Of a stretch of 64,000 nt of DNA, positions 17,441 to 45,632 are shown one piece after another. The stretch covers positions 61,828 through 125,827 of IMG/VR virus record IMGVR_UViG_3300032770_000007; one strand, written 5' to 3'. The DNA is from a virus. A model generated the notes under the pieces. That model searched no databases. It was not told where the DNA came from and saw only the letters and a program-made list of their open reading frames with translations. Position numbers and translations under genes: made by a program. Numbering within the stretch: the first letter of the stretch is position 1; each line of letters begins with the position of its first letter.

Positions 17441-17600
17441 GATTTACCTTTTTACCTTTATCAAGACCAACATAATATCCAGATATGTAACTACCCAATA
17501 GACAACCCATTATTATCCAATACTGAAGTGTATTTGTTACGTCTACGATAGTGAAACAAGCAATCGAAAGAAAAACAAAATAAAGTATATACGCAATCAT
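17427..17600 (-). CDS. small membrane protein (57 aa, not in ORF track)
   Basis: MIAYILYFVFLSIACFTIV...WIIMGCLLGSYISGYYVG; ATGA overlap with the gp43 stop. Confidence 0.55.
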   Translation of the reverse strand: MIAYILYFVFLSIACFTIVDVTNTLQYWIIMGCLLGSYISGYYVGLDKGKKVNHDLV

Positions 17601-20149
17601 GAGAAAAAATCCTCTAAACTATCTGTTTCTTCTAACTGCCAACCAATAGCATCCAAAATAATCATCAAAGGTTGAATGAATGTCTTATTGAATTGGGCTT
17701 CATAATCAATATATTTCTCTAATCCAAATTCATCTGGAATTTGGTCTAAGAAAGCAATCACCTTGGATTGAAATGGATTGGGCTCTTTCAATAAGATATA
17801 TTTGATCTTATCTCTTGCCTTGATCAACTCATATTTCTTATCCAAACCAAAATATTGAATATAGTGATTGAAAACCAATGCACCTTTCACATGGATAGGA
17901 GTGCCTGTTCTATATATAGTCTTTTTGTCTGTATAGTCATCCAACAAGTCACTCATTCCAGTAGGTGAGGCTATCTTAATCATGGGCTGTATTTTGAATT
18001 CTTTTCTAAAACTTTCAACAAAGGTTATGAGTTTGACTTTGTCTTTGTGAGATAGAATAAAACTCACAGCCTCTTTCAACTTATCTCTACAAAATTTTGG
18101 TCTATCAGTTCTAACTGCAGCCCAACCAGTAATCTTGATATCTGGTTTATCATATTCAACACCTTCATTATTATAGACACTAAGAATATAGTTCTTCTTG
18201 GCGGCCCAAATGGCTTGGTCTGCTATGGCCTCTCTCTTCATGATCATTTTTTGATCATAGGCATTCACATAGGTAGCCAGGTCTATATAAGATTGATCTA
18301 TGAATGGTCTAATCTTTTGTTCACAAATTCTATCAATCGTTGCTACTATCTCTTTTGGATCTTTGTCTTCTATACCCAACTTCTTAATCAAAGGAGCCAA
18401 AGACAAATATACAGAATCAGTATCAGAAGCTAGAACATAATCTGTATTAGAAGTACCAAGAACTTTGTTAAGATATTGATTGATAGATTTCTGGATCCAA
18501 CGAATAGACAGCTGCCCAGAAAGTGTAACAGCCTCTGCTATTCTTACATCAAAGAAGCGAAAGTATTTGTTAGCAATAGAACCATAGGCACTATTCAGAG
18601 TAACCTTGAGTGCCATTTGAAGTGACTTATATCTCCCTGCAAGAGCCTTTAGCCTGACTTTCTCATTAGGGTCTGTAGTATGCTCTATTTCCTTCTTTGT
18701 TTCTATTTCTAAGTTTTTATATCTGGCTCTTTCTTTGAACATTTCCTCCATGATTTCCCCAAGAAAACCTCTCTTATCAGTTCTAAACAACTGACCATTT
18801 GGAGTCAAAGTAAGCTTCTTAGAAGTCAACCAAGAAAGATCAGGTTGTCTATTCAAAAGAGTATCTACATTGATTGGGTTTACTCTCATCCATTCTTTTA
18901 TATCTTCATCATAATCATCAGGCTGAACTAAAGTTTCTGGTGATAGATTGTACATCATTATCAAATGTGGATACAGAGAAGTCAAGTCAAAACTCACTAA
19001 CCAGTTATACCAACCAGGTCTGGGTTCTTTTACATAGGCACCTTCAATGGCCTGCCATTTAGCACCATCAGTAGAAGGAGGAACTATTATAGAACGTTCT
19101 TTAAGCTTGTTATAAATCCTAGCATCCCAAATACGACCCTGGGATAACACATCATCAATATTGACTTTGTTCATATAGGCCAGTGTCATGGCCAGATTAA
19201 CCAAACGCAATTTGTCTTCTATTCCAACAACCAACTCAACATCATTGATGTTATATTCTATGAATAGTTGATGGTTTTGAGTTCTGAGCTGATGGAGATC
19301 CTTGTAACCCAAAGAACGATAATCAACCTTATGCTTCCCTAGCTCTACTGTTGCTATGTTCTCCAACATATAAGATTCTTGATTGGGTTGAGGAGCATAT
19401 TTCTTATACAAAGCAATATAATCTAAAGAGTTTATGCCTTGGAGAGTATATGTTTGAAACTCTCTATTACCCAATCTTTGAGACCAAGTATTAATGTTAT
19501 TCCAGGGAGATAGTTTTGCTGCTGTAGCTGCTCCTAATAGTTTTGTAATCCTATTAACCAAATATGGAATATCAAAGATTTCAGTATTCCAACCAGTCAG
19601 AACATCAGGACAACAGCCATTCCAAAGAGCCAGAAATTTCTGAATAAGGTCTATTTCATCCTTACATTGAAAGTATTTGATATCATTCCTCTTTGAAACA
19701 AAAGGTTCATAACCAAATACAAAGTAAGTATCCATCAAATGAACTGTAATGGCTGTGATCTGTTGATCTGCCTTTTCAGGCATAGGGAAACCATTAGAAC
19801 TATCTACTTCAATATCAATGATGCCTGTTGTTATTTTGCTAGCATCAAAGTCAATAATGCCTGGAAAATTGTCTGCTATGAAAGCATATTGCCAGCGCTG
19901 ATTACCATAGATTTTGAAGTTAGAAACACCTTCATATTGTTTTACAAATGCTCTAGCATCCCAAATGGTCTGGAACTGTTTCTCTTCAAGATTGAAACCT
20001 TCTAAAGAAGTCCATTTGGTAAGCCTGTTTGTATTTACATACAACTTAGGCTTGTAAGTTATCTTCTTCTTGACTTTTTGGCCATCCTGAATTCCCCGAT
20101 ACAGAATATCCTTGCCATCCAAGACAACTGAAGTGTAAAAATCAGACAT
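17597..20149 (-). CDS. gp43: family B DNA polymerase
   Basis: DIEV exo I, SFDLTSLYPH, KVTLNSAYG, SDTDS, KKNY; C-terminal clamp-binding LEDFF. Confidence 0.98.
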   Translation of the reverse strand: MSDFYTSVVLDGKDILYRGIQDGQKVKKKITYKPKLYVNTNRLTKWTSLEGFNLEEKQFQTIWDARAFVKQYEGVSNFKIYGNQRWQYAFIADNFPGIIDFDASKITTGIIDIEVDSSNGFPMPEKADQQITAITVHLMDTYFVFGYEPFVSKRNDIKYFQCKDEIDLIQKFLALWNGCCPDVLTGWNTEIFDIPYLVNRITKLLGAATAAKLSPWNNINTWSQRLGNREFQTYTLQGINSLDYIALYKKYAPQPNQESYMLENIATVELGKHKVDYRSLGYKDLHQLRTQNHQLFIEYNINDVELVVGIEDKLRLVNLAMTLAYMNKVNIDDVLSQGRIWDARIYNKLKERSIIVPPSTDGAKWQAIEGAYVKEPRPGWYNWLVSFDLTSLYPHLIMMYNLSPETLVQPDDYDEDIKEWMRVNPINVDTLLNRQPDLSWLTSKKLTLTPNGQLFRTDKRGFLGEIMEEMFKERARYKNLEIETKKEIEHTTDPNEKVRLKALAGRYKSLQMALKVTLNSAYGSIANKYFRFFDVRIAEAVTLSGQLSIRWIQKSINQYLNKVLGTSNTDYVLASDTDSVYLSLAPLIKKLGIEDKDPKEIVATIDRICEQKIRPFIDQSYIDLATYVNAYDQKMIMKREAIADQAIWAAKKNYILSVYNNEGVEYDKPDIKITGWAAVRTDRPKFCRDKLKEAVSFILSHKDKVKLITFVESFRKEFKIQPMIKIASPTGMSDLLDDYTDKKTIYRTGTPIHVKGALVFNHYIQYFGLDKKYELIKARDKIKYILLKEPNPFQSKVIAFLDQIPDEFGLEKYIDYEAQFNKTFIQPLMIILDAIGWQLEETDSLEDFFS

Positions 20150-29382: not shown

Positions 29383-30072
29383 TTAGGCTGCTTCCGCATT
29401 AGATTGACCAAACTCACTAAGATTCTTTTCAACAGCAACCCAATAGGTAACATTCTTTGAAGAGAACTTAGAAATACCCTTGGAAGCGATTTCAACTGTA
29501 TAGTCACCAGGCAGCAATCTAAGATTTTCTACCTTCAATACAAACTTGAAATCCTGTCCTGAAGTATTCTCTCCAATGAACAAAGTGCTATCATCAACAC
29601 CTTCTCCCTTGGCATCAGCAGCAGAGATCACAACATTCTTACCATCATTCTGAATGATGACATGGGGACACTTCAATACTGAACCTGTTTCCTCAATCCA
29701 TTTCAAATCCCTTTCTGATAGATTGATCTTGACATCAAAAGTAGCAATATTGATCTGCTTATCTGGGGGTACAATGATCACCTTCACATCAGAATAACGA
29801 ACACGTGATCTTCTTGAACCAGCACTTGATAGTACAAGATACTCTTCAGCAAAATCTACTTCAGGATTTTCATGAAGTGATAGAACTCCAAGAACCTTAT
29901 TCAGATCATAGATACCAAACTCTTTGGGAAAATCTTCTGTAACTTCTGCTTGAGCAAGAACAGCCTTATTTGTAGAAATTGTTCTAAGAATATTGCCTGG
30001 CTTTACTACAAGTCCAGGATTAATACTCGAAAAGTTCTTTAAGATTTCTATCGTAGATTCACTAAGTTTCAT
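29383..30072 (-). CDS. gp45: sliding clamp
   Basis: MKLSESTIEILKNFSSIN, FGIYDL, ENLRLLPGDY, YWVAVE. Confidence 0.96.
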   Translation of the reverse strand: MKLSESTIEILKNFSSINPGLVVKPGNILRTISTNKAVLAQAEVTEDFPKEFGIYDLNKVLGVLSLHENPEVDFAEEYLVLSSAGSRRSRVRYSDVKVIIVPPDKQINIATFDVKINLSERDLKWIEETGSVLKCPHVIIQNDGKNVVISAADAKGEGVDDSTLFIGENTSGQDFKFVLKVENLRLLPGDYTVEIASKGISKFSSKNVTYWVAVEKNLSEFGQSNAEAA

Positions 30073-30100: not shown

Positions 30101-30129
30101 ATTATCCTCTGAATATCTCTAATAGTCAA
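30101..30129 (-). promoter_or_regulatory. sigma70-type promoter TTGACT-N17-GATAAT upstream of gp45
   Basis: 17-bp spacer; the same CTTGACTATTA start occurs upstream of uvsY. Confidence 0.7.
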
Positions 30130-30392
30130 GGCAACATAGTTCTATTCCAGTCAACTACTCTAAAACATGTTTTCCTATTATCATTATAATGATATTCTCT
30201 ACCCATGTCTATTGATGCATCATATTCATAAGTACTCAATAATCTGCCATCTTCATCATATAAAAATATAATACCCATATCCAGTAATGCAACAGTAATA
30301 TAGGTTTGATCTGTACCTATTCGATCAACATTAGCTAGAATGCCATACAATGTGAAAAGCTCTCTCAAAACAGAAAGCGTATTATCATTCAT
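30126..30392 (-). CDS. small hypothetical protein (paralogue family)
   Basis: Pattern shared with ORFs at 61057, 61302 and 63365. Confidence 0.6.
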   Translation of the reverse strand: MNDNTLSVLRELFTLYGILANVDRIGTDQTYITVALLDMGIIFLYDEDGRLLSTYEYDASIDMGREYHYNDNRKTCFRVVDWNRTMLP

Positions 30393-31018
30393 TTAAAAAA
30401 TTCAACTACTTTGGCAACTATAGATTTCAGACTATCCAGTGAATAATCATTTTTGATAACCATTTCTACATGACTATTACACCAATCCCATTCTGAAATA
30501 TGAGGAAGTTGTTTGAAAATATGTTCTCGTATTTCTGGTAGATATCTATTTTGTTTATACATAATAGCCATCTGCATCCATTCTGGATCTGGTCCTCTTT
30601 TGACTCTGACAATATGCGCGCCTGCTATCTTATTGAGAGCATAGATTTCATTTTCAAATCTAACATCAGTGATTACATAATTTTTCTTTAGGTCAAGTCT
30701 ATTGATCAGACTTGAAGTCCAAAGATTATTACCAAAGATTTGTCTACCTGCTTCTGTTCCCATCCATTGTAAGGCCAAGCGAGGAGTGAATTCTGGTTTA
30801 TTAAGTTCCTTGGCCCAATAATCATCAACGGTATCTCGCCATCTTCTTGACTCATCCGTATCACCTTCAAGAAGCTTTCTATCCCAACCAAAAATGATCG
30901 AAACTGCATCTTTTAATGGTTTGGCAAAAGCCTCTGGAGTAAAACCATGATCTTTCTTAAGTAACTCTCCAACAGTGCTTTTACCAGAACCAATTAAGCC
31001 TATCAAACCAATAATCAT
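30389..31018 (-). CDS. gp1: deoxynucleoside monophosphate kinase
   Basis: GLIGSGKST, FAKPLKD, PRLALQWMGTE, ITDVRFENE, HISE. Confidence 0.93.
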   Translation of the reverse strand: MIIGLIGLIGSGKSTVGELLKKDHGFTPEAFAKPLKDAVSIIFGWDRKLLEGDTDESRRWRDTVDDYWAKELNKPEFTPRLALQWMGTEAGRQIFGNNLWTSSLINRLDLKKNYVITDVRFENEIYALNKIAGAHIVRVKRGPDPEWMQMAIMYKQNRYLPEIREHIFKQLPHISEWDWCNSHVEMVIKNDYSLDSLKSIVAKVVEFFK

Positions 31019-31021
31019 AGT

Positions 31022-31423
31022 TTATAATCCATAATATGTTTTAGTAATCTCTTCAATAATATATCTTTTTTTATTTTGTAAAAAGTTTTCAAAATCTTCT
31101 ACTATTTGATCTGAAGCGATTTGATCTGAAGCGAGATCATATCCATATTCATATTGTACATTTATAGGATAACGAAAATGTCCTCCGTATCTTGTTATTT
31201 TATTGACTTCTATACAATCATAAGGATGTATGTATGGGACAGAAGGAGTCAAAAATTCTGAATGATTTAACCATTTCCAATGACACCAAAGAGTTACTAG
31301 ATTAACTGATCCCATCATGACAATGTATTGTTCATAAGATATAGAAGGAATATATGGTCTCAATATTCCTTCAATTTCTGATACAGAAGCAAAGACGTGC
31401 TTCTGAAGAAGTTGTTCCATCAT
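31022..31423 (-). CDS. hypothetical protein
   Basis: ORF in operon. Confidence 0.55.
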   Translation of the reverse strand: MMEQLLQKHVFASVSEIEGILRPYIPSISYEQYIVMMGSVNLVTLWCHWKWLNHSEFLTPSVPYIHPYDCIEVNKITRYGGHFRYPINVQYEYGYDLASDQIASDQIVEDFENFLQNKKRYIIEEITKTYYGL

Positions 31424-31435
31424 AGAAAAAGATTT

Positions 31436-32350
31436 TTATAGCTTTCCTAAATGATTGGCTACAGCTGGCATGTCACCAGTAAATGCATAGGTACCAATGT
31501 GGTGCGTACGCATCCAAGGACACAACCAAACTTTACCACCCATGTTGCGCCAGTTCTGACAGAATGTATAATCTTCTGAAAGATAGCGATCAGAACCACC
31601 AACTTCCTTGGCTACTCCATCTACATTAATTGATCTCTTGCGATCAATCAAGCAATCAAAGAAAGCATGAATATAACGACTGCCATCAAAATGAGCCTGT
31701 CCAATATGGTCTGGCTTATAACGATATTCAGGATACTGGACCATGTATCTTTCAAATACTTCTTTCTTGACCATCATGTAACCAGTACCAATTTCCATGA
31801 CTTCAATAGGTTCGCCAATATTGAATTGACCTGTACCAGCCACAGCATTGAATACATAATCACCAACCAGCTTTTCTAGTTCTTCTGGTTTGATAGAGTT
31901 TTCTTCTGCGGATTTAGCCAGGTCAGCTGGTGTTGGGTTGCTGCCCTGAGCCAACTCAGTAACTCCTTTCCAGTTCAAACTACGTACAATGGCTTCTTTG
32001 ATAGCCCACCATTTGATTGACTTCTTTGGATATGGAGCACCAACGATATCCTTATCCATGGCTAAGAGAGTTAGAACGTCTCTTGGATCAAAATGAATAT
32101 CAGCATCGATGAAAAGTAAATGAGAATATCCTGATCTTAGAAATTCATCACAAAGATAGTTTCTGGCTCTAGTGATTAAGCTCTCATTGAAGATAAAAGA
32201 AAATCTGCTTTCAATACCAAACTGTTGGCACATGCCTTGAAGATCAAGACAAGACTTGGCATACATACCATGAGAAAATCCACCATACATGGGAGTAGCA
32301 ATAAACAGTTTTCTACTGGCGAGTTGTTCTCTTGTTATTTCTAAATTCAT
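31436..32350 (-). CDS. GT-A fold glycosyltransferase-like protein
   Basis: FIATPMYGG, ESLITRARN, FIDADI (DxD), GTGYMM, LSEDYTFC, H.G. Confidence 0.8.
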   Translation of the reverse strand: MNLEITREQLASRKLFIATPMYGGFSHGMYAKSCLDLQGMCQQFGIESRFSFIFNESLITRARNYLCDEFLRSGYSHLLFIDADIHFDPRDVLTLLAMDKDIVGAPYPKKSIKWWAIKEAIVRSLNWKGVTELAQGSNPTPADLAKSAEENSIKPEELEKLVGDYVFNAVAGTGQFNIGEPIEVMEIGTGYMMVKKEVFERYMVQYPEYRYKPDHIGQAHFDGSRYIHAFFDCLIDRKRSINVDGVAKEVGGSDRYLSEDYTFCQNWRNMGGKVWLCPWMRTHHIGTYAFTGDMPAVANHLGKL

Positions 32351-32360
32351 ATTATACCCT

Positions 32361-32939
32361 CTATATCAATTCAACCACTTCATCGGTGTCATGTAGTTCA
32401 AGACGCAACCAATTCACAATATCGACTAAATCAGCCTCATTATTATTGGTCATTTCAGTTATATAGTCCATCAAAACAAAGGATGAACTAATGTTGCTGT
32501 ATTTAGTATCCCTGCCCTTGATAAACTTCTCAGATTGAGTATCTTTTCTATCTATATGTCTTCTTTCTAAAATCATTGGATCTGTATGTATTAATAATAT
32601 TTTAAGATCCAATTTTCCTTCATCAACCAGTTCTGCAGCCTTTTCTAAAAATGAAGCAGTGAATAATCTATCACCTTCAAATAAGATATTGCCTGGACAC
32701 TCTTTCAAAAACATTATGGCTTCAGGCTGAACTGCCATGGATAGTTTATCAGTACCAGCAAACTGTTCATTCAAATCTGAGTAGTCTCCCAATATGTAAA
32801 GCTGATACTTGGGATCATACATTGTTTTGACGAGTTTTCTGGGTTCCTTGACTTCTAGTTCTCTATCAGCCAGGAACCTCTTCATAATACTTGTTTTGCC
32901 TGTAGCTGGCAGACCACCAATAGCTATCATTTTTTTCAT
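32361..32939 (-). CDS. P-loop kinase associated with base-modification operons
   Basis: GGLPATGKTS, FAGTDKLSM, EGDRL; adjacent to the aGPT-Pplase2-like gene. Confidence 0.8.
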   Translation of the reverse strand: MKKMIAIGGLPATGKTSIMKRFLADRELEVKEPRKLVKTMYDPKYQLYILGDYSDLNEQFAGTDKLSMAVQPEAIMFLKECPGNILFEGDRLFTASFLEKAAELVDEGKLDLKILLIHTDPMILERRHIDRKDTQSEKFIKGRDTKYSNISSSFVLMDYITEMTNNNEADLVDIVNWLRLELHDTDEVVELI

Positions 32940-34042
32940 TCAAACACCAATTCATTCACATTATGATAATACTTACTATTGAAACTATTTTCAAATACTG
33001 GAAAATCCTGATCCATCATTATCACTTCACCAGTCAATCTAAAATGATTTTGTTTCTCTTTTGATAGACCTGTTTGTTTGTGAGTAGGATCAGATGGATT
33101 ATCTTCTACTCGTAAGTATATAGGCAGAGTATCTTTACGTAGTTCGCGTTGATTATCAAATCTAAATCCCCAACGTTCTTCTGCCTTTTGGATCCTCTTA
33201 TAATGCATATCCAAATATACACCAGGATATCGGCGATCCTTTCTAAACCAGGATTTGTAACAACACATTGTACTTTCTAGTGTAAAGTAGGAATTATCTG
33301 GATGTGGATATTGTTCTGAACATTCTTTCAGAAGTCGTTCTCCTTCTTGTTCTAGCCAAGGAAGAACTTTGCTATAATCTCCATTGAAACCTGGATTCAA
33401 TGTTTCATGCCAATCCAAATCATCCCTGCCCAATATTTTACACAATCCATTTCTATGTGATTTGCTGCCATTTATATCATCCAAAAATAGACTATCACAA
33501 TCAATAGGCAGACCAGCAATCCTTAAATATTCCAAATAAGAAAAGGTGGATAATCTACCAAATAGAAAAAACTTTTCCATCACGTAGTTCCATAATCTAC
33601 GGAACCGGATATAGTTATCTCCATCAGTACCACAAACAGATTCAAAAAACTTGGATTGTGTCTGGCCATCAAGATTTGTAAGATATGATAAAACAATATC
33701 ACCAATCTTTGATTTGGTATATTTCCTATCCATGTCCCATTCTAGTTTGTGCCAATGTCTCATTACAAAACTATGAAGTTGATCTGCCTCATTCTTGGTA
33801 GGCAAATCTGGAAAATACCTAAGCAAAGTTTCTGTAGTTACTATGTTTTGACAAACCCCATTTAGAAAACAGGCCCAGAGTAATCGTTCTTTAGACCAAG
33901 CAAATCTATTAGCCAAATAAGGAAAAGCAGCATAAACAAAGCCTGGATGTGCTTTGTGCTTATTATGAAAATAGTAGAATCGTTTAAAGACTTCTCGACG
34001 ATTGATGGGTAAACGATAATCTTGATTAGCTAATAAAATCAT
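32936..34042 (-). CDS. amino acid:DNA transferase (aGPT-Pplase2-like, HhH glycosylase fold)
   Basis: HPGFVY, DMDRKY, FGRLSTFSYLEYL, GSKSHRNGL, TLESTMCCYK, RRYPGVYLD. Confidence 0.8.
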   Translation of the reverse strand: MILLANQDYRLPINRREVFKRFYYFHNKHKAHPGFVYAAFPYLANRFAWSKERLLWACFLNGVCQNIVTTETLLRYFPDLPTKNEADQLHSFVMRHWHKLEWDMDRKYTKSKIGDIVLSYLTNLDGQTQSKFFESVCGTDGDNYIRFRRLWNYVMEKFFLFGRLSTFSYLEYLRIAGLPIDCDSLFLDDINGSKSHRNGLCKILGRDDLDWHETLNPGFNGDYSKVLPWLEQEGERLLKECSEQYPHPDNSYFTLESTMCCYKSWFRKDRRYPGVYLDMHYKRIQKAEERWGFRFDNQRELRKDTLPIYLRVEDNPSDPTHKQTGLSKEKQNHFRLTGEVIMMDQDFPVFENSFNSKYYHNVNELVFE

Positions 34043-35031
34043 CCAACCTTGCCTCCTATAATCCAAAACATAGATTTACTCTTGTTTATATGAGCAAATA
34101 AATGAGAATGATCTAGCATAAAGTTCCATGCCTTGGACTCATAACGAGGATGAAAATCTATATTTTCATATTGTGCTTCTACTAGTTCATTATAAGTGCT
34201 ATAGCCATCTTTACAATATGAACAACTCTTTTCACCACAACCATTTTGAGCATCAAAGTGTTCTATTTGAATATCTTTTTTATACAAACTATTGATGAAA
34301 CTAAAATCAAAGATAAAGTCTGGATCATAACTATGCACTTTACCAATAGTGACTAATCTATCTCTAACATAAATTGGATTATTAGAACCAAGATTACCTA
34401 CACCAATCATTACAACTCTTTTTATATTTCTTGGATTGAGTGCCAGGCCATGAAGAACACTTACAATGCTGTTACAAGAACCAGCGGAGATAATCAATGT
34501 ATCAACTTCATCAGGTATGTTTGATACCTGAAAGGCACTCACACTATGAAACTTGGCTATGTACTCTGCTTCACCTGTTACTGTAATATTTGTTTCTAAA
34601 TGAAAGAGTTCTGGTGTTACGAGACCTTCAGCCTTGGCTTCTAATGTTTTGGCATAACCCACATTAGACACAACGAACTCAGCACCAAACTTTTGAGCCA
34701 TTTCAAGCATGGGATAGTTTATAATAGTTTGAGTTCCTGTTACATCAATATCTTTGAGACCATAATGATTACAAATAGCAGCAACCATTGGGTGTTGAGG
34801 AGAACCAGAAACAGCTCCATGAACAACTCCTGTCTTACCTTCTTTCACAGCCTTTTCATGGATTAGCCAAATACATTGTCGGCATTTGGTGCCATTGATG
34901 GAATTTGGACCAAGAGGAGCAAAGAAATCTTCCCTCTTGAACCACATATGACCAACTTTTTCTACTGGAGTTAGATCATACAAATGCTGATGCCAAGCAT
35001 CAGTCCATGGGGTCAATACAGATCGTGTCAC
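34039..35031 (-). CDS. fold-type II PLP-dependent enzyme
   Basis: LTPVE..WFKRED..NGTKCRQ (PLP Lys), SPQ, AGSCNS, HPRYESK, FWIIG. Confidence 0.85.
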   Translation of the reverse strand: MTRSVLTPWTDAWHQHLYDLTPVEKVGHMWFKREDFFAPLGPNSINGTKCRQCIWLIHEKAVKEGKTGVVHGAVSGSPQHPMVAAICNHYGLKDIDVTGTQTIINYPMLEMAQKFGAEFVVSNVGYAKTLEAKAEGLVTPELFHLETNITVTGEAEYIAKFHSVSAFQVSNIPDEVDTLIISAGSCNSIVSVLHGLALNPRNIKRVVMIGVGNLGSNNPIYVRDRLVTIGKVHSYDPDFIFDFSFINSLYKKDIQIEHFDAQNGCGEKSCSYCKDGYSTYNELVEAQYENIDFHPRYESKAWNFMLDHSHLFAHINKSKSMFWIIGGKVG

Positions 35032-35051
35032 AGAGCAGCTCTCCTTCCCTT

Positions 35052-35228
35052 CTATACCAAGTCAAATGGATATAGGTGGTCTCGTCGAAAGATTCTATCT
35101 AATATTCTTTGTGAGTAAACTCTTTCACAAAATGGGCATTTCCATTCCATGGTTTCAGGAAATTGTAAGAGTAAATAGGGAGGAGGGGATTGATAAGAGC
35201 AAGGAGCTTCAATACAGGTATATCTCAT
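35052..35228 (-). CDS. 58-aa putative Zn-ribbon protein (not in ORF track)
   Basis: MRYTCIEAPC...WKCPFCERVY; ATGA overlap with the dioxygenase stop. Confidence 0.55.
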   Translation of the reverse strand: MRYTCIEAPCSYQSPPPYLLLQFPETMEWKCPFCERVYSQRILDRIFRRDHLYPFDLV

Positions 35229-36496
35229 TCAAAAAGTTCCTCTAAGGTTGTGTAAGATTTAGTTTTTGTAATCAAATGTTCTTGATGTCTAGATCTTAAG
35301 AAGTCATACCATTCTTTAGTCTCAAACATAGACTGACTAACACCATTCCAACCATCTCTAGCCAGTACATGATTTGGATCTTTGCGTCTGTGTTCTACGA
35401 AATCATATCTGGCATCTTCGTATTCTTTTGTGCCCAATTCTAGCATATCCTCACGAAAGTAACACACAAGACTTATTCTCTCATGATCATCACCAGTTAT
35501 AGGAGTATTACCATGGATATACTCATGATTGTTGACCAGGAGCAGATCACCTGGTCTCAAATTCACAGCAGCTCTGATTTCTGGAAGTATTAGATATCCT
35601 CCCTGATAGTTTTTGTTCTTAGCCACAACAGAAAGATTACTAAATCCAGAGTTCAAATCTCCAGCATCTCTGTGAGCAGCTGTTCTGAAGTTTTTATTAA
35701 CAGTTATTGTAGTGAACACAGTACCTGGAATAACAAACTCTGGATCTAGTTTTTTAGCACACTCTAGTTGATTGGCAAATCTATTAGGTAACATTTCATA
35801 GAAACTTAGACTTAGTTTTTGTAAGAATGGAAAAGACAATTGGAACTTATCATAGTTGTGAGCAGTGTAACTAGTTGCTCTACCATAAGGAATACGAGGA
35901 TAGCGTCCAAAGTATCCAGCCACCCCACTTTCTACTGGATTGGCATAAGAGGTATCACTTATGAAAGTGTCTAATACCCATTTGGCTGCTTTTCTAATAT
36001 CTTCTGGTTCTGTGAAAGTAACTACTGCTCGTAGCCATCTGTTCCAATCAAAGTCATGCTTCTTGGTTTCAGAAGTCAACCAAACTTCTCCACGACATTC
36101 TGGATCCTTCTTTGCTCTGGCTCGTAAAGTTTCAATATCCTGTGGAATAGGTAATGTTTCAACTTTGCTTAAGAATTTGAGAATTTCTCTTTGTTCTGGA
36201 GTAAGCCATTCCCTCCCTTGAAGTTTCTTTCCCTTCGGACCAGCAGCCACTCCTCTATTTTGAGATTGTTTGGCTGCTTCTTTCAAACCATCATAGGCTC
36301 CAATCTGGTCTGCATCACTGAACCAATTCTTACGGAACTTCAGAATAATATTCTCTTCATCAGCTCTTTTATTATCAAATGGATCTTTGCGGTAAACATC
36401 ACAATCTTCTTCTAATAAAACATCGTAATGTTTTTCATCTAGGAATGTTTGAAGGAGATGCTCGCAATCAATCTTAGACAAGAATAGTGTTTTCAT
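35225..36496 (-). CDS. TET/JBP-family 2OG-Fe(II) dioxygenase
   Basis: FTTITVNKNFRTAAHRDAGD (HxD), HGNT, RISLVCYFRE; C-terminal LEELF clamp-binding-like peptide. Confidence 0.85.
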   Translation of the reverse strand: MKTLFLSKIDCEHLLQTFLDEKHYDVLLEEDCDVYRKDPFDNKRADEENIILKFRKNWFSDADQIGAYDGLKEAAKQSQNRGVAAGPKGKKLQGREWLTPEQREILKFLSKVETLPIPQDIETLRARAKKDPECRGEVWLTSETKKHDFDWNRWLRAVVTFTEPEDIRKAAKWVLDTFISDTSYANPVESGVAGYFGRYPRIPYGRATSYTAHNYDKFQLSFPFLQKLSLSFYEMLPNRFANQLECAKKLDPEFVIPGTVFTTITVNKNFRTAAHRDAGDLNSGFSNLSVVAKNKNYQGGYLILPEIRAAVNLRPGDLLLVNNHEYIHGNTPITGDDHERISLVCYFREDMLELGTKEYEDARYDFVEHRRKDPNHVLARDGWNGVSQSMFETKEWYDFLRSRHQEHLITKTKSYTTLEELFE

Positions 36497-36534
36497 ATTT
36501 TCTCTTAGATAACCCACCCACACTATATAGACAA

Positions 36535-36563
36535 AATAAAAATGGGGTCACAAAAGTGACCCC
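36535..36563 (-). terminator. Rho-independent terminator
   Basis: GGGGTCAC-TTTT-GTGACCCC followed by ATTTTTATTTT on the minus strand. Confidence 0.85.
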
Positions 36564-36647
36564 GAAGTGAGGCTTGCGCCTCTTGCGCGTCCAGGAGACG
36601 TTTGGACTGCGCTTATCCGTTGCGACTGCTACGGGTTCCTTGATGTT
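36535..36647 (-). ncRNA. candidate structured small RNA of about 110 nt
   Basis: GC-rich with three hairpins (one with a GCAA tetraloop), own promoter and terminator, no credible ORF on this strand. Confidence 0.65.
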
Positions 36648-36653
36648 AGATAT

Positions 36654-36682
36654 ATTCTACCTTCAATATCCGTAAGAGTCAA
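36654..36682 (-). promoter_or_regulatory. sigma70-type promoter TTGACT-N17-TAGAAT
   Basis: Near-consensus with a 17-bp spacer, directly upstream of the hairpin cluster. Confidence 0.8.
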
Positions 36683-36691
36683 ATGTCAGCA

Positions 36692-36829
36692 TCATTTCTT
36701 CTCATCCCAGGACTTACAAGCTAAGACAAGCATGAGGAAACTAACTCCAAATCCTAACAAGGATAGTCTAGTTTCAACATGGCTTGTTATGAACAATGAG
36801 CCCAAGCACCACAGTACATTTTTGTTCAT
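36692..36829 (-). CDS. 45-aa membrane peptide (not in ORF track)
   Basis: MNKNVLWCLGSLFITS...LLGFGVSFLMLVLAC; TAATG overlap with the CobS-like stop. Confidence 0.45.
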   Translation of the reverse strand: MNKNVLWCLGSLFITSHVETRLSLLGFGVSFLMLVLACKSWDEKK

Positions 36830-38229: not shown

Positions 38230-38270
38230 CGATTTGTCTCCGACTCACAAAATGTTATTCAACAGAGGGT

Positions 38271-38330
38271 ATTTTACCACAAGTCAACCACAAAGTAAAG
38301 CACTATAATTTATCAGTTATCAATCACTTA
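38271..38330 (-). promoter_or_regulatory. early promoter TTATAGTGC-TTTACT-N17-TAAAAT with upstream IHF-consensus box
   Basis: One of three copies with identical spacing; TATCAATCACTTA at 38318-38330. Confidence 0.8.
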
Positions 38331-44437: not shown

Positions 44438-45078
44438 GGTTGACCCTCCTTGCCTTTTGGCCGTTGAAAAGTTCTACCCCAAACCCAACCATTGGGTAAA
44501 GGTGTATTAGAAAAAATCATTTTAGACTTGGTACCGTCAGTAATCCAACGCATCCCTTTATTAGATCCATAAACATTTCCTGGTTTGAATTCTGTTGATG
44601 GAGAAGAATGTTGGCCTTTATGAGATAAACTTAGTTTTTCAATATGTTCTTCTGATAGAGTTTTATTAGTATTCCAAGGTTTAATCCCTTTACGTTTTTT
44701 GCTCCATTCCTGTTTCGTTTTTTCAGAATGTTTATAGCCTTTATGTGAACCTATGGGAGGACTTCCACCACCAGGACACAAATTATAGTTGCTATTTGAT
44801 TTTACATATTCTTCAGTAACTATATCTGCTTCTGCTTTCTTTGCTTCTTCTATTGTTTCAAAAATCTGTAAATCTACTCTATAAAAATGTTCTTTACCGT
44901 GCAATTTGATTGCTTCTTTTAGAGATTGTTTATCTGGATTGATAGATTTTGCCTTGATTTTATTTATTTCAGATTTCCAATCTCCACTACCAAGATATCC
45001 TGGAGTATTGTTATTTGTAATACCATGGTATGTTTTACCATTAATACTACAAGTTGTTACATAAAGTACATAACTCAT
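44434..45078 (-). CDS. GIY-YIG (Seg-like) homing endonuclease
   Basis: YVLYVTT..GKTYHG, YLGSG, YNLCPGG, HSEKTK and LSEEHIEKLS NUMOD3-like repeats. Confidence 0.8.
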   Translation of the reverse strand: MSYVLYVTTCSINGKTYHGITNNNTPGYLGSGDWKSEINKIKAKSINPDKQSLKEAIKLHGKEHFYRVDLQIFETIEEAKKAEADIVTEEYVKSNSNYNLCPGGGSPPIGSHKGYKHSEKTKQEWSKKRKGIKPWNTNKTLSEEHIEKLSLSHKGQHSSPSTEFKPGNVYGSNKGMRWITDGTKSKMIFSNTPLPNGWVWGRTFQRPKGKEGQP

Positions 45079-45632
45079 TCGTCTACGAACCTTTCTACAC
45101 CTTTCTTGGCTTTGGCTGTCTTGGCTTTTGCTTTATCTAAGTTCTTTTCAAACTTACCAATGAACTCACTAATGTTATCATATAGCTGTCCTTGCTGGAT
45201 ATTATCTTCGCCATTTTCTTCTAGTTCTGCTACTTCAGCATCATCCAGAACACCTGATTGTTGGGCCATTTTGTATTTGGTGTATAGTTCTTTCTTTTCA
45301 AGCCAAATACGTCTACTGAATGCATAGATACAATATTGGGTGAAATATCCAAAAGGATTTTTTGATGGATGATTGGGGTCAAAGTTATCAAAGTAACGAA
45401 TACAGTTTTCTATAGCATCACTTACCATTATATCACGAAAGGTATAGTTGCTATAGCAAGGTTTTCTAGCCACATTTTCTGCTATTAACATCAAACAATT
45501 TGCTATGTAATCTGAAATCTTAGGCTTTGGCTTCTTGGCCTTGGCTGCTTTCTTACACTTGGCTTTGTATGCTATTATTGCTTCTAAAAATGCTTTTTTA
45601 TCTATGTAGTTTACAGTAGTTTTGTTTACCAT
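45075..45632 (-). CDS. gp55: late transcription sigma factor
   Basis: NYIDKKAFL, YSNYTFRDIMVSDAIENC, NPFGYFTQ..AFSRRI..EK. Confidence 0.95.
   Translation of the reverse strand: MVNKTTVNYIDKKAFLEAIIAYKAKCKKAAKAKKPKPKISDYIANCLMLIAENVARKPCYSNYTFRDIMVSDAIENCIRYFDNFDPNHPSKNPFGYFTQYCIYAFSRRIWLEKKELYTKYKMAQQSGVLDDAEVAELEENGEDNIQQGQLYDNISEFIGKFEKNLDKAKAKTAKAKKGVERFVDE

What the first reader, a model, noticed from the sequence alone, without database searches (positions are those of the whole stretch)
30389..36496. DNA hypermodification operon coupling a TET/JBP dioxygenase to an amino-acid:DNA transferase, PLP enzyme, kinase and glycosyltransferase
Seen: the coupled order TET/JBP (HxD..H..R), 58-aa Cys4 ORF, PLP enzyme, aGPT-Pplase2-like transferase, P-loop kinase, GT-A, ORF, dNMP kinase, directly upstream of gp45. 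The dioxygenase ends in LEELFE, like the gp43 clamp-binding tail LEDFFS. Established: characterised thymidine hypermodification (ViI, M6) starts from 5hmdU incorporated during replication, then a 5hmdU DNA kinase, amino-acid transfer and PLP decarboxylation. Characterised phage TET/JBP enzymes mostly oxidise 5mC for glycosylation. Inference: a hybrid, fully post-replicative and clamp-coupled route (T or 5mC to hydroxymethyl, activation, amino-acid adduct, PLP processing, perhaps glycosylation) that may yield a new base. No aGPT-Pplase1 kinase, dUMP hydroxymethylase or C5-MTase is visible in the window, so the activation step is unexplained.
Basis: partly seen in the sequence, partly recalled or inferred. 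Interest (0 to 1): 0.8.

Follow-up and report, generated by a model that had tools for sequence, protein, structure and literature searches.

The report
Phage thymine-hypermodification cluster with clamp tails
An uncultured T4-like phage carries a gene set that most likely oxidises thymine in its finished DNA and then attaches a small amine to it; this kind of pathway is already described, but here the first enzyme ends in the same short peptide that the phage's DNA polymerase carries for holding the sliding clamp.

Summary
On the minus strand, tightly packed, lie: a TET/JBP dioxygenase (HxD..H..R intact), a 58-aa Cys4 protein, a PLP enzyme, an amino-acid:DNA transferase (AADT), a P-loop kinase, a GT-A glycosyltransferase, an ORF, dNMP kinase, an ORF, gp45.

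The "hybrid post-replicative route" is real but already in print. Lee 2021 describes metavirome clusters in which TET_JBP replaces dUMP hydroxymethylase. O'Toole 2026 shows phage thymine dioxygenases linked to AADTs and P-loop kinases. The module TET-PLP-AADT-kinase recurs in 48 of 80 related viral loci.

The PLP enzyme is 35% identical to ViI gp226, the O-seryl-thymidine decarboxylase, with its lysine kept. The record (69% complete) has ThyX but no ThyA-type hydroxymethylase, C5-methyltransferase, ParB or radical SAM gene. The cluster's own kinase (Ploopntkinase3 family) plausibly performs the "unexplained" activation.

The clamp idea gains support. All 79 of 79 orthologous dioxygenases in T4-like frames end in a gp43-like tail, and 0 of 42 short dioxygenases from other phage types do. 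A predicted gp45 complex gave only weak support, and binding is unmeasured. I found no paper reporting this. This scan has noted such tails before on other DNA (36 notes, at least 25 genomes).

The product is unknown. A ViI-like aminoethoxymethyl-uracil is my best guess.

The parts
35225..36523 (-). TET/JBP-family Fe(II)/2OG dioxygenase (5mYOX), predicted thymine dioxygenase. 432 aa as listed; the likely start is M10 at 36496.
   Evidence: Pfam Tet_JBP 3.5e-23. H284/D286/H337 invariant and R349 nearly so in 112 relatives. AF2 model pLDDT 94.8, pTM 0.91. Foldseek best hits TET2 2.3e-11, CcTet, NgTET1, CMD1. Profile against PDB: TET2 1.3e-7.
35228..35248 (-). C-terminal tail T426-E432 (TLEELFE) of the dioxygenase, a candidate gp45-binding epitope.
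   Evidence: 79 of 79 orthologues end in the motif. Low-confidence linker followed by a terminal helix 427-431 in the model. Resembles the phage's own gp43 and gp55 tails. Predicted complex gave weak support only.
35052..35228 (-). 58-aa Cys4 (CxxxxC...CxxC) small protein, function unknown.
   Evidence: 4-nt overlap with the dioxygenase stop. Weak DUF4379 treble-clef hit 0.0062. A 59-aa homologue sits at the same position in L108 (41%, 1e-6). Found in 1 of the 80 set-2 loci and 0 of the 80 set-1 loci.
34039..35031 (-). Fold-type-II PLP enzyme, homologue of the ViI gp226 decarboxylase of amino-acid-thymidine adducts.
   Evidence: 35% identity to ViI gp226 (YP_004327553), E 7e-61; K49 aligns with gp226 K92. 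34% to CBA120 orf228. K49 invariant in 36 relatives. phrog_3650 3.5e-67.
32936..34066 (-). Amino-acid:DNA transferase (AADT, formerly aGPT-Pplase2). The likely start is M9, near 34042.
   Evidence: Pfam ADDT 1.2e-16. 28% to ViI gp247 serine:DNA transferase, E 3e-20. 38% to gene 3 of mycobacteriophages, which lies next to a 'thymidine hydroxylase'. 70% to the L108 homologue.
32361..32939 (-). P-loop kinase (Ploopntkinase3 family), candidate 5hmU-DNA kinase for the activation step.
   Evidence: Walker A GLPATGKT. Pfam Ploopntkinase3 1.7e-5 for this protein and 18 of 25 family members, best 2.1e-30. 4-nt overlap with the AADT. Homologues lie beside TET genes in Cr30, Melnitz and mycobacteriophage Prince.
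31436..32350 (-). GT-A-fold glycosyltransferase. Membership of the pathway is uncertain.
   Evidence: Pfam Anp1 1.5e-6. Atlas neighbours are viral nucleotide-diphospho-sugar transferases. Conserved at 59-74% in 57 of 80 loci. Also found in Sinorhizobium phages with no dioxygenase hit. No tail motif in 0 of 49.
31022..31423 (-). 133-aa ORF with no known family.
   Evidence: No Pfam, PHROG or NCBIfam hit. No homologue in the 80 set-1 loci.
30389..31018 (-). dNMP kinase (T4 gp1-like), a general nucleotide-metabolism gene of the conserved frame.
   Evidence: Pfam DNMK 6.1e-10, phrog_139 4.3e-45. Present whatever the cassette, in 49 of 80 loci.
30126..30392 (-). 88-aa ORF with no known family.
   Evidence: No family hit. 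No homologue in the 80 set-1 loci.
29383..30072 (-). gp45 sliding clamp, proposed docking platform.
   Evidence: Pfam gp45-slide_C 1.9e-11, phrog_223 2.6e-69.
17597..20149 (-). gp43 DNA polymerase, ending ..DSLEDFFS; the reference tail.
   Evidence: Pfam DNA_pol_B 3.4e-30. The last six residues are identical in the complete relative G001.
45075..45632 (-). gp55 late sigma factor, ending ..GVERFVDE; a second established class of clamp client with a related tail.
   Evidence: phrog_234 9.5e-51. The G001 orthologue ends ..GLEKFVDEDSNIG. T4 gp55 ends ..SLDFLYEAND.

Best explanation
This is a post-replicative thymidine-hypermodification cluster of an uncultured T4-like phage.

Proposed steps:
1. 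The phage makes ordinary dTMP with ThyX and incorporates T (inferred).
2. The TET/JBP dioxygenase oxidises T in DNA to 5-hydroxymethyluracil. This is inferred from the family, the intact active site and the absence of any C5-methyltransferase.
3. The adjacent Ploopntkinase3-type kinase phosphorylates the hydroxymethyl group (inferred from position only).
4. The AADT displaces the phosphate with an amino acid attached through its side chain. Serine is the nearest precedent; the actual donor is unknown.
5. The gp226-like PLP enzyme removes the carboxylate and leaves a primary amine. My best guess for the product is 5-(2-aminoethoxy)methyl-uracil or a close analogue.

The dioxygenase is probably held on newly made phage DNA by the gp45 sliding clamp through its C-terminal TLEELFE tail. 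In relatives the AADT and a GT-B glycosyltransferase probably dock the same way. The tail copies the tails of gp43 and gp55. This docking is inferred from sequence, and binding has not been measured. The GT-A and the dNMP kinase belong to the conserved gene frame, and neither is shown to belong to the pathway.
For: Family assignments:
- Dioxygenase.
- PLP enzyme: 35% identical to the biochemically characterised ViI gp226, with K49 aligned to K92 (gp226 function and K92 from PMC8989533 passages).
- AADT: Pfam ADDT, and 28% identical to ViI gp247.
- Kinase family.

Genome content:
- The record (CheckV 69%) has ThyX at 8.2e-56.
- It has no ThyA family, C5-MTase, ParB_N, radical SAM, HMUD2 or HMUD1 gene.
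- The 100%-complete relative G001 has no ThyA family gene or C5-MTase.

Recurrence:
- Of 80 viral loci found with the PLP profile, 75 hold an AADT, 61 a TET and 48 hold TET, PLP, AADT and kinase together. The median TET-PLP distance is 120 nt. One of the 80 holds a ThyA-family gene.
- L113, L114 and L115 show TET-PLP-AADT-kinase-GT-A-dNMP kinase in the same order as the window; L113 and L115 also hold gp45 and gp44 in frame.

Literature:
- TET_JBP in place of the hydroxymethylase beside T-hypermodification genes.
- Phage T-dioxygenases shown in vivo and in vitro, linked to P-loop kinases and AADTs.

Tail (regex counts):
- Present in 79 of 79 set-1 dioxygenases and 20 of 20 GT-B.
- AADT: 34 of 53 by regex; 48 of 53 end GLE(A/V)(L/I)W in the table.
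- Absent from neighbours: kinase 0 of 43, GT-A 0 of 49, dNMP kinase 0 of 44, gp45 0 of 42, gp44 0 of 20, CobS-like 0 of 55, GATase 0 of 56.
- Absent from 42 of 42 short dioxygenases from non-T4 contexts in set 2.
- In G000 the six-residue motif occurs 3 times in 37,523 positions, and all 3 are C-terminal (0.05 expected; the motif was defined after seeing the data).
- In DLP6, C48C1 and Melnitz the dioxygenase tail resembles that phage's own gp43 tail; in Cr30 less clearly.
- T4 gp43 and gp55 tails were read. Their role as interchangeable clamp-binding epitopes is from PMC2988020 (passages).

Predicted complex (gp45 x3 with residues 400-432): weak support.
- Score 0.41, best of 3 controls 0.00.
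- The mark was reached by 58 of 80 solved complexes and 2 of 110 mismatched pairs. At 0.60 or under, only 7 of those 80 solved complexes reached it, as did both of the mismatches that passed.
- The runs share at least 56% of contacts, and the partner's pLDDT is at least 45.
- I used my own alignments and a trimer-plus-peptide set-up, which differs from the calibration.
- An RB69 clamp-peptide complex is solved (PMC2988020), so the pass may reflect likeness only.
Against: - There is no chemistry or expression data for this phage.
- The kinase is not in the characterised 5-hmdU DNA kinase families. It shows no BLAST similarity to ViI gp243, and only the P-loop aligns by hhalign (probability 17%).
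- The AADT is only 28% identical to the serine transferase, so the donor is a guess.
- The record is 69% complete. A hydroxymethylase, methyltransferase or ParB could lie in the missing part. The complete relative G001 lacks the first two but carries a different cassette and a weak ParB_N hit inside it (4.5e-4, below cut-off).
- O'Toole et al. note that some ParB-less clade C1 enzymes showed no activity on T or 5mC in an earlier assay.
- Against the clamp idea:
  - The baseplate hub protein also ends ..GLEDFFT. Its G001 orthologue ends ..GILDFFE.
  - This window's AADT tail (..NELVFE) is degenerate.
  - The PLP enzyme and the kinase lack tails.
  - 5 of 11 long dioxygenases in set 2 end ..GFESFA, outside the regex.
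  - The complex prediction is weak.
  - The one claimed precedent, T4 alpha-glucosyltransferase with gp45, was not reproduced in a 2025 preprint that used C-terminally tagged enzymes.
Confidence: 0.7

Rival explanations
1. The shared C-terminal tail is not a clamp-binding epitope. It may serve another shared partner or a structural role, or it may be a family trait carried along by descent. In that case the enzymes find DNA on their own, like the ParB-independent phage T-dioxygenases.
For: - A baseplate hub protein of the same genome carries the motif, and its G001 orthologue keeps a similar end.
- The complex prediction gave weak support only (score 0.41, best of 3 controls 0.00, with the counts given under the best explanation).
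- The T4 alpha-GT-gp45 interaction was not reproduced.
- The 79 orthologues are 52-57% identical to the window's enzyme and 80% alike among themselves, so they are not independent.
- PMC2988020 notes that similarity of gp43, gp55 and gp33 tails is not conserved in all T4-family phages.
Against: - Three unrelated enzyme families (dioxygenase, AADT, GT-B) carry the tail, while six neighbouring families never do.
- It sits after a low-confidence linker, as described for gp55.
- It is absent from all 42 short dioxygenases of phage types without a T4 frame.
- Tails of divergent isolates resemble their own gp43.
- C-termini are otherwise poorly conserved between G000 and G001: 28 of 52 orthologue pairs share 0 of the last 6 residues.
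Confidence: 0.35
2. The GT-A is part of the pathway. The end product would then be a glycosylated base, either base-J-like glucosyl-hmU on part of the sites or a sugar on the amine adduct. That would be a base not yet described.
For: - The GT-A lies 10 nt downstream of the kinase in the same orientation.
- It is kept next to every cassette type in 55 fully covered loci.
- In DLP6 it lies 1.2 kb from the dioxygenase with no AADT or kinase between.
- GTs are the domains that most often co-occur with phage 5mYOX, at 31%.
Against: - Homologues at 45% identity occur in Sinorhizobium phages phiM12, phiM7 and phiN3, where the dioxygenase tblastn (13 records in all) found nothing.
- It never carries the tail (0 of 49), unlike the GT-B of relatives.
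- Its conservation (59-74%) matches that of core genes rather than the variable cassette.
- It has no homology to a characterised DNA glycosyltransferase.
Confidence: 0.25
3. The dioxygenase acts on 5-methylcytosine made by a methyltransferase that is not seen here (in the missing third of the genome, or of the host). The kinase-AADT-PLP steps would then decorate 5hmC.
For: - The record is 69% complete.
- In phage Melnitz, a homologue of this kinase (30%) lies two genes from a TET-like gene that directly follows an HhaI-type C5-MTase, so the kinase family can accompany a 5mC route.
- Characterised phage T-dioxygenases also oxidise 5mC in vitro (abstract).
Against: - No C5-MTase is in the record or in the complete relative G001.
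- None lies beside the dioxygenase here.
- AADT and gp226-type PLP enzymes are characterised only on thymidine derivatives.
- Phage 5mYOXs without a neighbouring C5-MT are classed as T-dioxygenases, and tested representatives bear this out.
Confidence: 0.07
4. The cluster marks only a small, sequence-specific subset of thymines and serves regulation or packaging. It would not give bulk protection against restriction.
For: O'Toole et al. report sequence preferences (YTY, NTR) and only about 1-35% global T oxidation in E. coli, and they raise this reading themselves.
Against: - Characterised AADT/PLP pathways modify up to half of thymidines and protect against endonucleases (abstract of PMC8989533).
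- A clamp tether would favour processive, genome-wide action (inference).
- Nothing in the sequence decides the extent.
Confidence: 0.2

Closest known systems
Metavirome thymidine-hypermodification clusters with TET_JBP in place of dUMP hydroxymethylase (Lee et al. 2021, NAR, PMC8989533, Fig. 2 sequences 22-25; passages seen, figure not)
   Same: A TET_JBP gene lies beside AADT (aGPT-Pplase2), P-loop kinase and PLP genes. There is no hydroxymethylase and no nearby 5mC-forming gene. The same inference of in-situ T to 5hmU is drawn.
   Different: I could not see which contigs or architectures the figure shows. The paper's passages do not mention T4-like frames, clamp tails or the Ploopntkinase3 family.
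Phage T-dioxygenases (5mYOX clades C1 and C2; O'Toole et al. 2026, PNAS, PMC13229309), for example the ParB - thymidine hydroxylase - AADT - kinase genes 1-4 of mycobacteriophage Prince
   Same: TET/JBP fold. Linkage to AADT and a P-loop kinase. The window's AADT is 38% identical to the mycobacteriophage gene 3 family. The kinase is 23% identical to gene 4 (E 1e-6), and the dioxygenase 28% to gene 2 (E 2e-8).
   Different: No ParB is in the record. The dioxygenase is about 100-170 residues longer, with an N-terminal region conserved only in the long family, and it ends in a gp43-like tail that the short enzymes lack (0 of 42). Clade membership could not be tested, because the sequences are in closed supplements.
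Salmonella phage ViI (Kuttervirus) 5-NeOmdU pathway: dUMP hydroxymethylase, 5-hmdU DNA kinases gp67/gp243, serine:DNA transferase gp247, PLP decarboxylase gp226
   Same: The PLP enzyme is 35% identical with the lysine kept. The AADT is 28% identical. The logic of phosphorylate, transfer an amino acid, then decarboxylate is the same. There is no radical SAM isomerase, as in ViI and unlike M6.
   Different: 5hmU would be made on DNA by a dioxygenase, not incorporated from hmdUTP. The kinase belongs to another P-loop family: ViI gp243 is Pfam HMUD2 at 5.6e-169, and the window's kinase shows no similarity to it beyond the P-loop. In the window the genes are contiguous; in ViI they are spread over about 12 kb.
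C-terminal sliding-clamp-binding epitopes of T4/RB69 gp43, gp55 and gp33 (Geiduschek and Kassavetis 2010, PMC2988020)
   Same: A short hydrophobic and acidic peptide at the very C-terminus, after a variable linker. T4 gp43 ends ..ASLDFLFG and T4 gp55 ..SLDFLYEAND. This clade has gp43 ..SLEDFFS and dioxygenase ..STLEDLFG / ..TTLEELFE.
   Different: Here it sits on DNA-base-modifying enzymes, which are not among the clients named in that review. Binding has not been measured.
Base J synthesis in kinetoplastids (JBP1/2 thymidine hydroxylases plus a glucosyltransferase)
   Same: Post-replicative T to 5hmU by a TET/JBP enzyme, followed by decoration of the hydroxymethyl group.
   Different: The decoration here is predicted to run through phosphate activation and amino-acid transfer. 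The GT-A is not shown to act on DNA, and no J-binding domain was found.

Membership tests
TET/JBP (5mYOX) dioxygenases | Pfam PF12851 match over the curated cut-off | tested here: met
   82.1 bits against a cut-off of 34.9, E 3.5e-23.
TET/JBP (5mYOX) dioxygenases | HxD...H iron triad and a 2OG-binding Arg | tested here: met
   H284, D286 and H337 invariant, R349 in at least 90% of 112 relatives. Assigning these residues to iron and 2OG binding rests on family knowledge (recalled).
TET/JBP (5mYOX) dioxygenases | TET-type jelly-roll fold | tested here: met
   Model pLDDT 94.8. Foldseek TET2 2.3e-11, then CcTet, NgTET1, CMD1.
Phage thymine dioxygenase (as against 5mC dioxygenase) | No cognate C5-methyltransferase | tested here: met
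   PF00145 is absent from the record (69% complete) and from the complete relative G001. The search control matched in 9 of 14 named control genomes.
Phage thymine dioxygenase (as against 5mC dioxygenase) | Oxidation of T in DNA | not testable with these tools
   Needs an enzyme assay or LC-MS.
ParB-dependent 5mYOX subclass (O'Toole 2026) | A co-located ParB homologue | tested here: not met
   No PF02195 match in the record, and none among the cluster ORFs. Some relatives carry a 443-445-aa gene with a weak ParB_N hit (4.5e-4, below cut-off).
ParB-dependent 5mYOX subclass (O'Toole 2026) | Placement in clade C1 of the published tree or sequence network | not testable with these tools
Amino-acid:DNA transferase (AADT, aGPT-Pplase2) | Pfam PF18724 match over the cut-off | tested here: met
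   61.6 bits against 26.2. 28% to ViI gp247, E 3e-20.
Amino-acid:DNA transferase (AADT, aGPT-Pplase2) | Identity of the amino-acid donor | not testable with these tools
   Characterised members use Gly, Ser or putrescine. At 28% identity the donor cannot be read from sequence.
gp226/gp52-type PLP decarboxylase of nucleobase-amino-acid adducts | Full-length homology to a characterised member, with the Schiff-base lysine | tested here: met
   35% over residues 13-328, E 7e-61. K49 aligns with ViI gp226 K92, the residue named in PMC8989533. K49 is invariant in 36 relatives.
5-hmdU DNA kinase (HMUD1/HMUD2 families) | Match to PF18748 or PF18747 | tested here: not met
   No match in the record. The HMUD2 model itself works: ViI gp243 scores 5.6e-169. 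The window's kinase is Ploopntkinase3-like instead.
5-hmdU DNA kinase (function) | Phosphorylation of 5hmU in DNA | not testable with these tools
   Inferred only from the Walker A motif and from its position next to the AADT.
ViI/M6-type pre-replicative pathway | dUMP hydroxymethylase (ThyA family) | tested here: not met
   PF00303 is absent from the record and from G001. ThyX is present.
T4-type gp45-binding C-terminal epitope | Hydrophobic and acidic peptide at the extreme C-terminus after a variable linker, similar to the phage's own gp43 and gp55 tails | tested here: met
T4-type gp45-binding C-terminal epitope | Binding to gp45 | tested here: inconclusive
   Predicted complex gave weak support: score 0.41, best of 3 controls 0.00. 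The mark was reached by 58 of 80 solved complexes and 2 of 110 mismatched pairs; at 0.60 or under, by only 7 of those 80 solved complexes and by both mismatches that passed. No measurement exists.

The most novel reading that the evidence does not exclude
In T4-like phages the replication clamp gp45 takes the place that ParB, itself a DNA-sliding clamp, holds in other phages. The thymine dioxygenase, the AADT and (in relatives) a GT-B glycosyltransferase would dock on gp45 through polymerase-like tails. Hypermodification would then run just behind the fork and be confined to phage DNA, because only phage DNA carries gp45. That would be a third, clamp-tethered subclass of phage T-dioxygenase beside the ParB-dependent and ParB-independent ones. 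It would also explain how a post-replicative pathway can tell phage DNA from host DNA.
Probability: 0.4. Interest if true: 0.75.

Novelty: new variant of a known kind. Interest (0 to 1): 0.5.

Why it matters
The pathway type itself is published, so this cluster mainly adds a well-resolved member in a T4-like frame. It also shows that TET-PLP-AADT-kinase is a recurrent four-gene module.

What goes beyond the papers I could read is the polymerase-like tail on the DNA-acting enzymes.
- If it binds gp45, it gives a concrete mechanism for coupling base modification to replication and for restricting it to phage DNA.
- It would also suggest that ParB and gp45 are alternative DNA-clamp platforms for the same enzyme family.
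- O'Toole et al. call the rationale for post-replicative hypermodification 'a mystery', so the idea bears on an open question.
- It can be tested directly with a peptide and a purified clamp.

The enzymes may also be useful as tools for site-directed T oxidation and DNA labelling.

Tried and rejected
- Nucleotide search of the cluster against 50,697 phage records found no match.
- The first AF2 model, from 19 close homologues, was poor (pLDDT 48.8). It was replaced by a model from 112 sequences.
- The PLP enzyme, AADT and GT-A gave no useful PDB sequence hits. NCBIfam added nothing.
- A single-protein pattern scan for the PLP gene found no relative. A profile scan then found 80. This corrected my interim reading, that the PLP cassette was unique (0 of 80 loci found through the dioxygenase). 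That sample was simply not exhaustive.
- The promoter-like scan did not exceed shuffles: 34 found against 30.3 +/- 5.4.
- Rfam on 36300-37000 gave only a chance-level hit (E 0.27).
- The DLP6 paper: the held text names an 18-enzyme restriction panel but does not state its outcome. It gives no evidence on modification.
- PMC7029224 matched my search terms only in its reference list.
- I considered and rejected an N-terminal ParB fusion in the 432-aa protein. The whole chain aligns with the TET2 catalytic domain, and PF02195 finds nothing.
- I considered a radical-SAM (M6-type) route. No rSAM gene is in the record.
- Not in print, as far as these searches go:
  - '5myox' + 'sliding clamp' gave 1 paper, which uses the term for ParB.
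  - 'jbp' + 'gp45' + 'phage' gave 1 paper, on RB69 arabinosylation (listing only).
  - 'sliding clamp' + 'gp45' + 'glucosyltransferase' gave 7 papers.
  - Supplements of PMC13229309 and PMC8989533 (sequence lists, Dataset S10, SI figures) were closed and may bear on novelty and on clade placement.
- Recalled and not seen: Iyer et al. 2013 (naming of aGPT-Pplase and P-loop kinase clades), Sommer et al. 2004 (alpha-GT with gp45), Shamoo and Steitz 1999 (RB69 clamp-peptide structure).

Full report
WHAT IS THERE

The window is the right-hand 64 kb of a 125,827-base IMG/VR virus record that CheckV rates 69% complete. It is a T4-like phage with no close cultured relative. Its gp43 is at most about 45% identical to cyanophage polymerases, and the cluster has no nucleotide match among 50,697 phage records.

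Between a CobT-like/CobS-like gene pair and gp45/gp44, all on the minus strand, lie ten tightly packed genes:
- a 432-aa TET/JBP dioxygenase (35225-36523; the conserved start is M10 at 36496);
- a 58-aa Cys4 protein;
- a 330-aa PLP enzyme;
- a 376-aa amino-acid:DNA transferase (AADT);
- a 192-aa P-loop kinase;
- a 304-aa GT-A glycosyltransferase;
- a 133-aa ORF;
- a dNMP kinase;
- an 88-aa ORF;
- gp45.

The 88-aa ORF is the only omission.

THE INDIVIDUAL ENZYMES

Dioxygenase. It scores 82 bits against Pfam Tet_JBP. It keeps H284-x-D286, H337 and R349 across 112 relatives. With that alignment it folds at pLDDT 94.8, and its best solved neighbours are TET2, CcTet, NgTET1 and CMD1. The family is large: 1,634 50%-identity representatives at E <= 0.001.

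PLP enzyme. It hits Pfam PALP only weakly. However, it is 35% identical over its whole length to ViI gp226 (E 7e-61), and its K49 aligns with gp226 K92. Lee et al. 2021 showed that gp226 decarboxylates O-seryl-thymidine in DNA, and they named K92 as the likely Schiff-base lysine (PMC8989533, passages).

AADT. It scores over the Pfam ADDT cut-off. It is 28% identical to the ViI serine:DNA transferase gp247. It is 38% identical to gene 3 of a group of mycobacteriophages, where that gene lies between a 'thymidine hydroxylase' and a kinase, with a ParB-like gene in front.

Kinase. It has a Walker A motif and belongs to Pfam Ploopntkinase3 (18 of 25 family members, best 2.1e-30). It does not belong to the characterised 5-hmdU DNA kinase families. 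ViI gp243 is HMUD2 at 5.6e-169, and it shares only the P-loop with the window's kinase.

GT-A. It has a DAD motif and viral nucleotide-sugar-transferase neighbours.

THE REST OF THE GENOME

- The record has a ThyX thymidylate synthase just left of the window (G000:C1:59273-59872, 8.2e-56).
- It has no ThyA-family enzyme, the family of dUMP and dCMP hydroxymethylases.
- It has no C5-methyltransferase, no ParB, no radical SAM enzyme and no HMUD1 or HMUD2 kinase.
- Because a third of the genome is missing, I repeated two of these searches on a relative rated 100% complete (G001, 172,991 bases). It has no ThyA family gene and no C5-methyltransferase.

So the phage most likely incorporates ordinary T and oxidises it on the polymer. 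The only candidate for activating the hydroxymethyl group is the kinase inside the cluster. The kinase's substrate is still inferred from position alone.

HOW COMMON IS THE ARRANGEMENT

A scan of IMG/VR with the dioxygenase returned 80 loci at 52-57% identity. They share one frame: CobT, CobS, dioxygenase, a variable cassette, GT-A, dNMP kinase, gp45, gp44.

In the 55 loci that cover the cassette completely, it takes these forms:
- a GT-B glycosyltransferase alone (19 loci);
- the same plus a GIY-YIG endonuclease (1);
- GATase - unknown protein - GNAT - AADT - kinase (14);
- GATase - GNAT - AADT - kinase (12);
- the 14-locus form plus a 443-aa protein with a weak ParB_N hit (8);
- an unknown 261-aa protein - AADT - kinase (1).

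None of these 80 loci had the PLP gene. That sample was not exhaustive. A scan with a profile of PLP homologues returned 80 further loci:
- 75 hold an AADT;
- 61 hold a TET-type gene;
- 48 hold dioxygenase, PLP enzyme, AADT and kinase together;
- only 1 holds a ThyA-family gene;
- 5 hold a ParB.

L108 is the closest relative (dioxygenase 59%, PLP 55%, AADT 70%). It also has a 59-aa homologue of the Cys4 protein in the same place. L113, L114 and L115 show dioxygenase-PLP-AADT-kinase-GT-A-dNMP kinase in the window's order; L113 and L115 also hold gp45 and gp44 in frame.

So TET-PLP-AADT-kinase is a widespread four-gene module. It occurs with long dioxygenases in T4-like frames and with short ones (250-340 aa) in other phages.

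COMPARISON WITH THE LITERATURE

Lee et al. [quoted passage not shown] They infer T to 5hmU in DNA.

O'Toole et al. 2026 demonstrate phage thymine dioxygenases in vivo and in vitro. They divide them into ParB-dependent and ParB-independent subclasses. They link the former to GATases, P-loop kinases and AADTs, and they find a C5-methyltransferase in only 6% of mined pathways.

The premise that phage TET enzymes mostly act on 5mC is out of date.

MOST LIKELY MECHANISM

The steps are T to 5hmU (dioxygenase), phosphorylation (kinase), amino-acid transfer (AADT), then decarboxylation (PLP enzyme).
- A gp226-type decarboxylase needs a free alpha-amine and carboxylate.
- No radical SAM isomerase of the M6 type is present.
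- The amino acid should therefore be attached through its side chain, as serine is in ViI.
- My best guess for the product is 5-(2-aminoethoxy)methyl-uracil or an analogue, at roughly one chance in three. The donor cannot be read from a 28% match.

The GT-A may or may not take part.
- For: it is kept beside every cassette type.
- Against: it is conserved like a core gene, never carries the tail described below, and has 45%-identical homologues in Sinorhizobium phages in which the dioxygenase search found nothing.

THE CLAMP-LIKE TAIL

The window's dioxygenase ends ..TTLEELFE and its gp43 ends ..DSLEDFFS.

Counts with one fixed pattern:
- All 79 orthologous dioxygenases with an intact end in the first set finish in (S/T)-(T/S/G)-L-(E/D)-(D/N)-(L/M/F)-F-x.
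- 20 of 20 GT-B enzymes carry it.
- 34 of 53 AADTs carry it. By the table, 48 of 53 AADTs end GLE(A/V)(L/I)W.
- None of the neighbouring families carries it: kinase 0 of 43, GT-A 0 of 49, dNMP kinase 0 of 44, gp45 0 of 42, gp44 0 of 20, CobS-like 0 of 55, GATase 0 of 56.
- In the second set, 6 of 11 long dioxygenases match. The other 5 are copies of one sequence ending ..GFESFA.
- None of the 42 short dioxygenases from non-T4 contexts matches.

Other observations:
- In the window's proteome the six-residue motif occurs three times, always at a C-terminus: gp43, the dioxygenase and a baseplate hub protein. In G001 three of five occurrences are terminal: gp43, dioxygenase and AADT. The motif was written after seeing the data, so the expected value of 0.05 flatters the result.
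- The gp55 late sigma factor (phrog_234) ends ..GVERFVDE here and ..GLEKFVDEDSNIG in G001.
- T4 gp43 ends ..ASLDFLFG and T4 gp55 ends ..SLDFLYEAND. According to Geiduschek and Kassavetis 2010 these are interchangeable sliding-clamp-binding epitopes that sit after a variable linker (PMC2988020, passages).
- In the AF2 model the last twenty residues are of low confidence and end in a short helix.
- In DLP6, C48C1 and Melnitz the dioxygenase tail resembles that phage's own gp43 tail; in Cr30 less clearly.

CAUTIONS ON THE CLAMP IDEA

- The baseplate hub protein shows that the motif is not exclusive to clamp clients.
- The window's own AADT tail (..NELVFE) is degenerate.
- The orthologues are related, so the counts are not independent events.
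- The predicted complex of a gp45 trimer with residues 400-432 gave weak support only:
  - Score 0.41, best of 3 controls 0.00.
  - The mark was reached by 58 of 80 solved complexes and 2 of 110 mismatched pairs. At 0.60 or under, only 7 of those 80 solved complexes reached it, as did both mismatches that passed.
  - The runs share at least 56% of contacts, and the partner's pLDDT is at least 45.
  - The set-up differed from the calibration.
  - A similar RB69 complex is solved, so the pass may reflect likeness.
- The old report that T4 alpha-glucosyltransferase binds gp45 was not reproduced in a 2025 preprint, which used C-terminally tagged enzymes.

I put clamp binding at a little over one in two.

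NOVELTY

I found no paper that reports polymerase-like tails on phage TET or AADT enzymes (searches; supplements closed).

Within this scan the same idea has been noted many times on other DNA, for dioxygenase-glycosyltransferase pairs (36 notes in at least 25 genomes). I reached it here from the window's own data.

This window adds four things:
- the amino-acid (ViI-type) cassette in the same frame;
- tails on AADTs;
- the negative control of 42 short dioxygenases, a few of them ParB-associated;
- the suggestion that gp45 and ParB are alternative DNA-clamp platforms for one enzyme family.

VERDICT

The cluster is a member of a published kind of pathway, with a plausible and testable clamp-tethering variant. 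The product and the binding remain to be measured.

Noticed in passing
window 36544-36682 (- strand): Between the CobS-like gene and the dioxygenase lie a promoter-like site (TTGACT-17-TAGAAT, 36682-36654) and a strong terminator-like hairpin (36563-36544; 8 pairs, 6 G-C, then a T run). No Rfam family matches: the only hit has E 0.27. This could be a short transcript or a read-through control point. Another first-stage note (e1-6160016) reads it as a small RNA.
   Followed up: partly
L021:11405-12736, also L007 and L012 (relatives): Eight of 55 related cassettes hold a 443-445-aa gene between the GNAT and the AADT. It has a weak ParB_N hit (4.5e-4, below cut-off) and no Pfam or PHROG family. 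These phages may therefore have both a ParB-like protein and clamp-tailed enzymes.
   Followed up: partly
window 36829-40605: The CobS-like AAA+ gene (phrog_249) and the 761-aa CobT/vWA-like gene (phrog_459) have 44-45% G+C, against 35-37% for their neighbours. They are part of the conserved frame upstream of the dioxygenase.
   Followed up: no
L085:9596-10315 (G000:C1:9596-10315): The baseplate hub protein (Pfam T4_baseplate 3.8e-49) ends ..GLEDFFT, nearly the gp43 tail. Its G001 orthologue ends ..GILDFFE. The reason is unknown. It is a caution for motif-based prediction of clamp clients.
   Followed up: partly
L090:3451-7531 (Methylophilales phage Melnitz): Directly downstream of gp43 lie, in order, an HhaI-type C5-methyltransferase, a TET-like gene (ending ..GNLNDFLGE), a 427-aa unknown and a homologue of the window's kinase (30%). 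The Ploopntkinase3-type kinase therefore also accompanies a likely 5mC route.
   Followed up: no
L108:9022-9597; L079:6862-7527; window 44434-45078: Homing-endonuclease-like genes are inserted inside or beside the modification cassettes: between PLP and AADT in L108, and a GIY-YIG/NUMOD3 gene between dioxygenase and GT-B in L079. In the window one lies between gp47 and gp55 (phrog_314).
   Followed up: no
L153 (relative): Here the kinase also ends in a tail of the same type (..PNDLSSFF), beside a dioxygenase ending ..TNLESFF. It is the only kinase I noticed with such a tail.
   Followed up: no
window 34039-35031: The identical PLP protein is on record from a contig of 155,938 bases. A more complete copy of this genome probably exists. 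The tool that would fetch it was closed.
   Followed up: no
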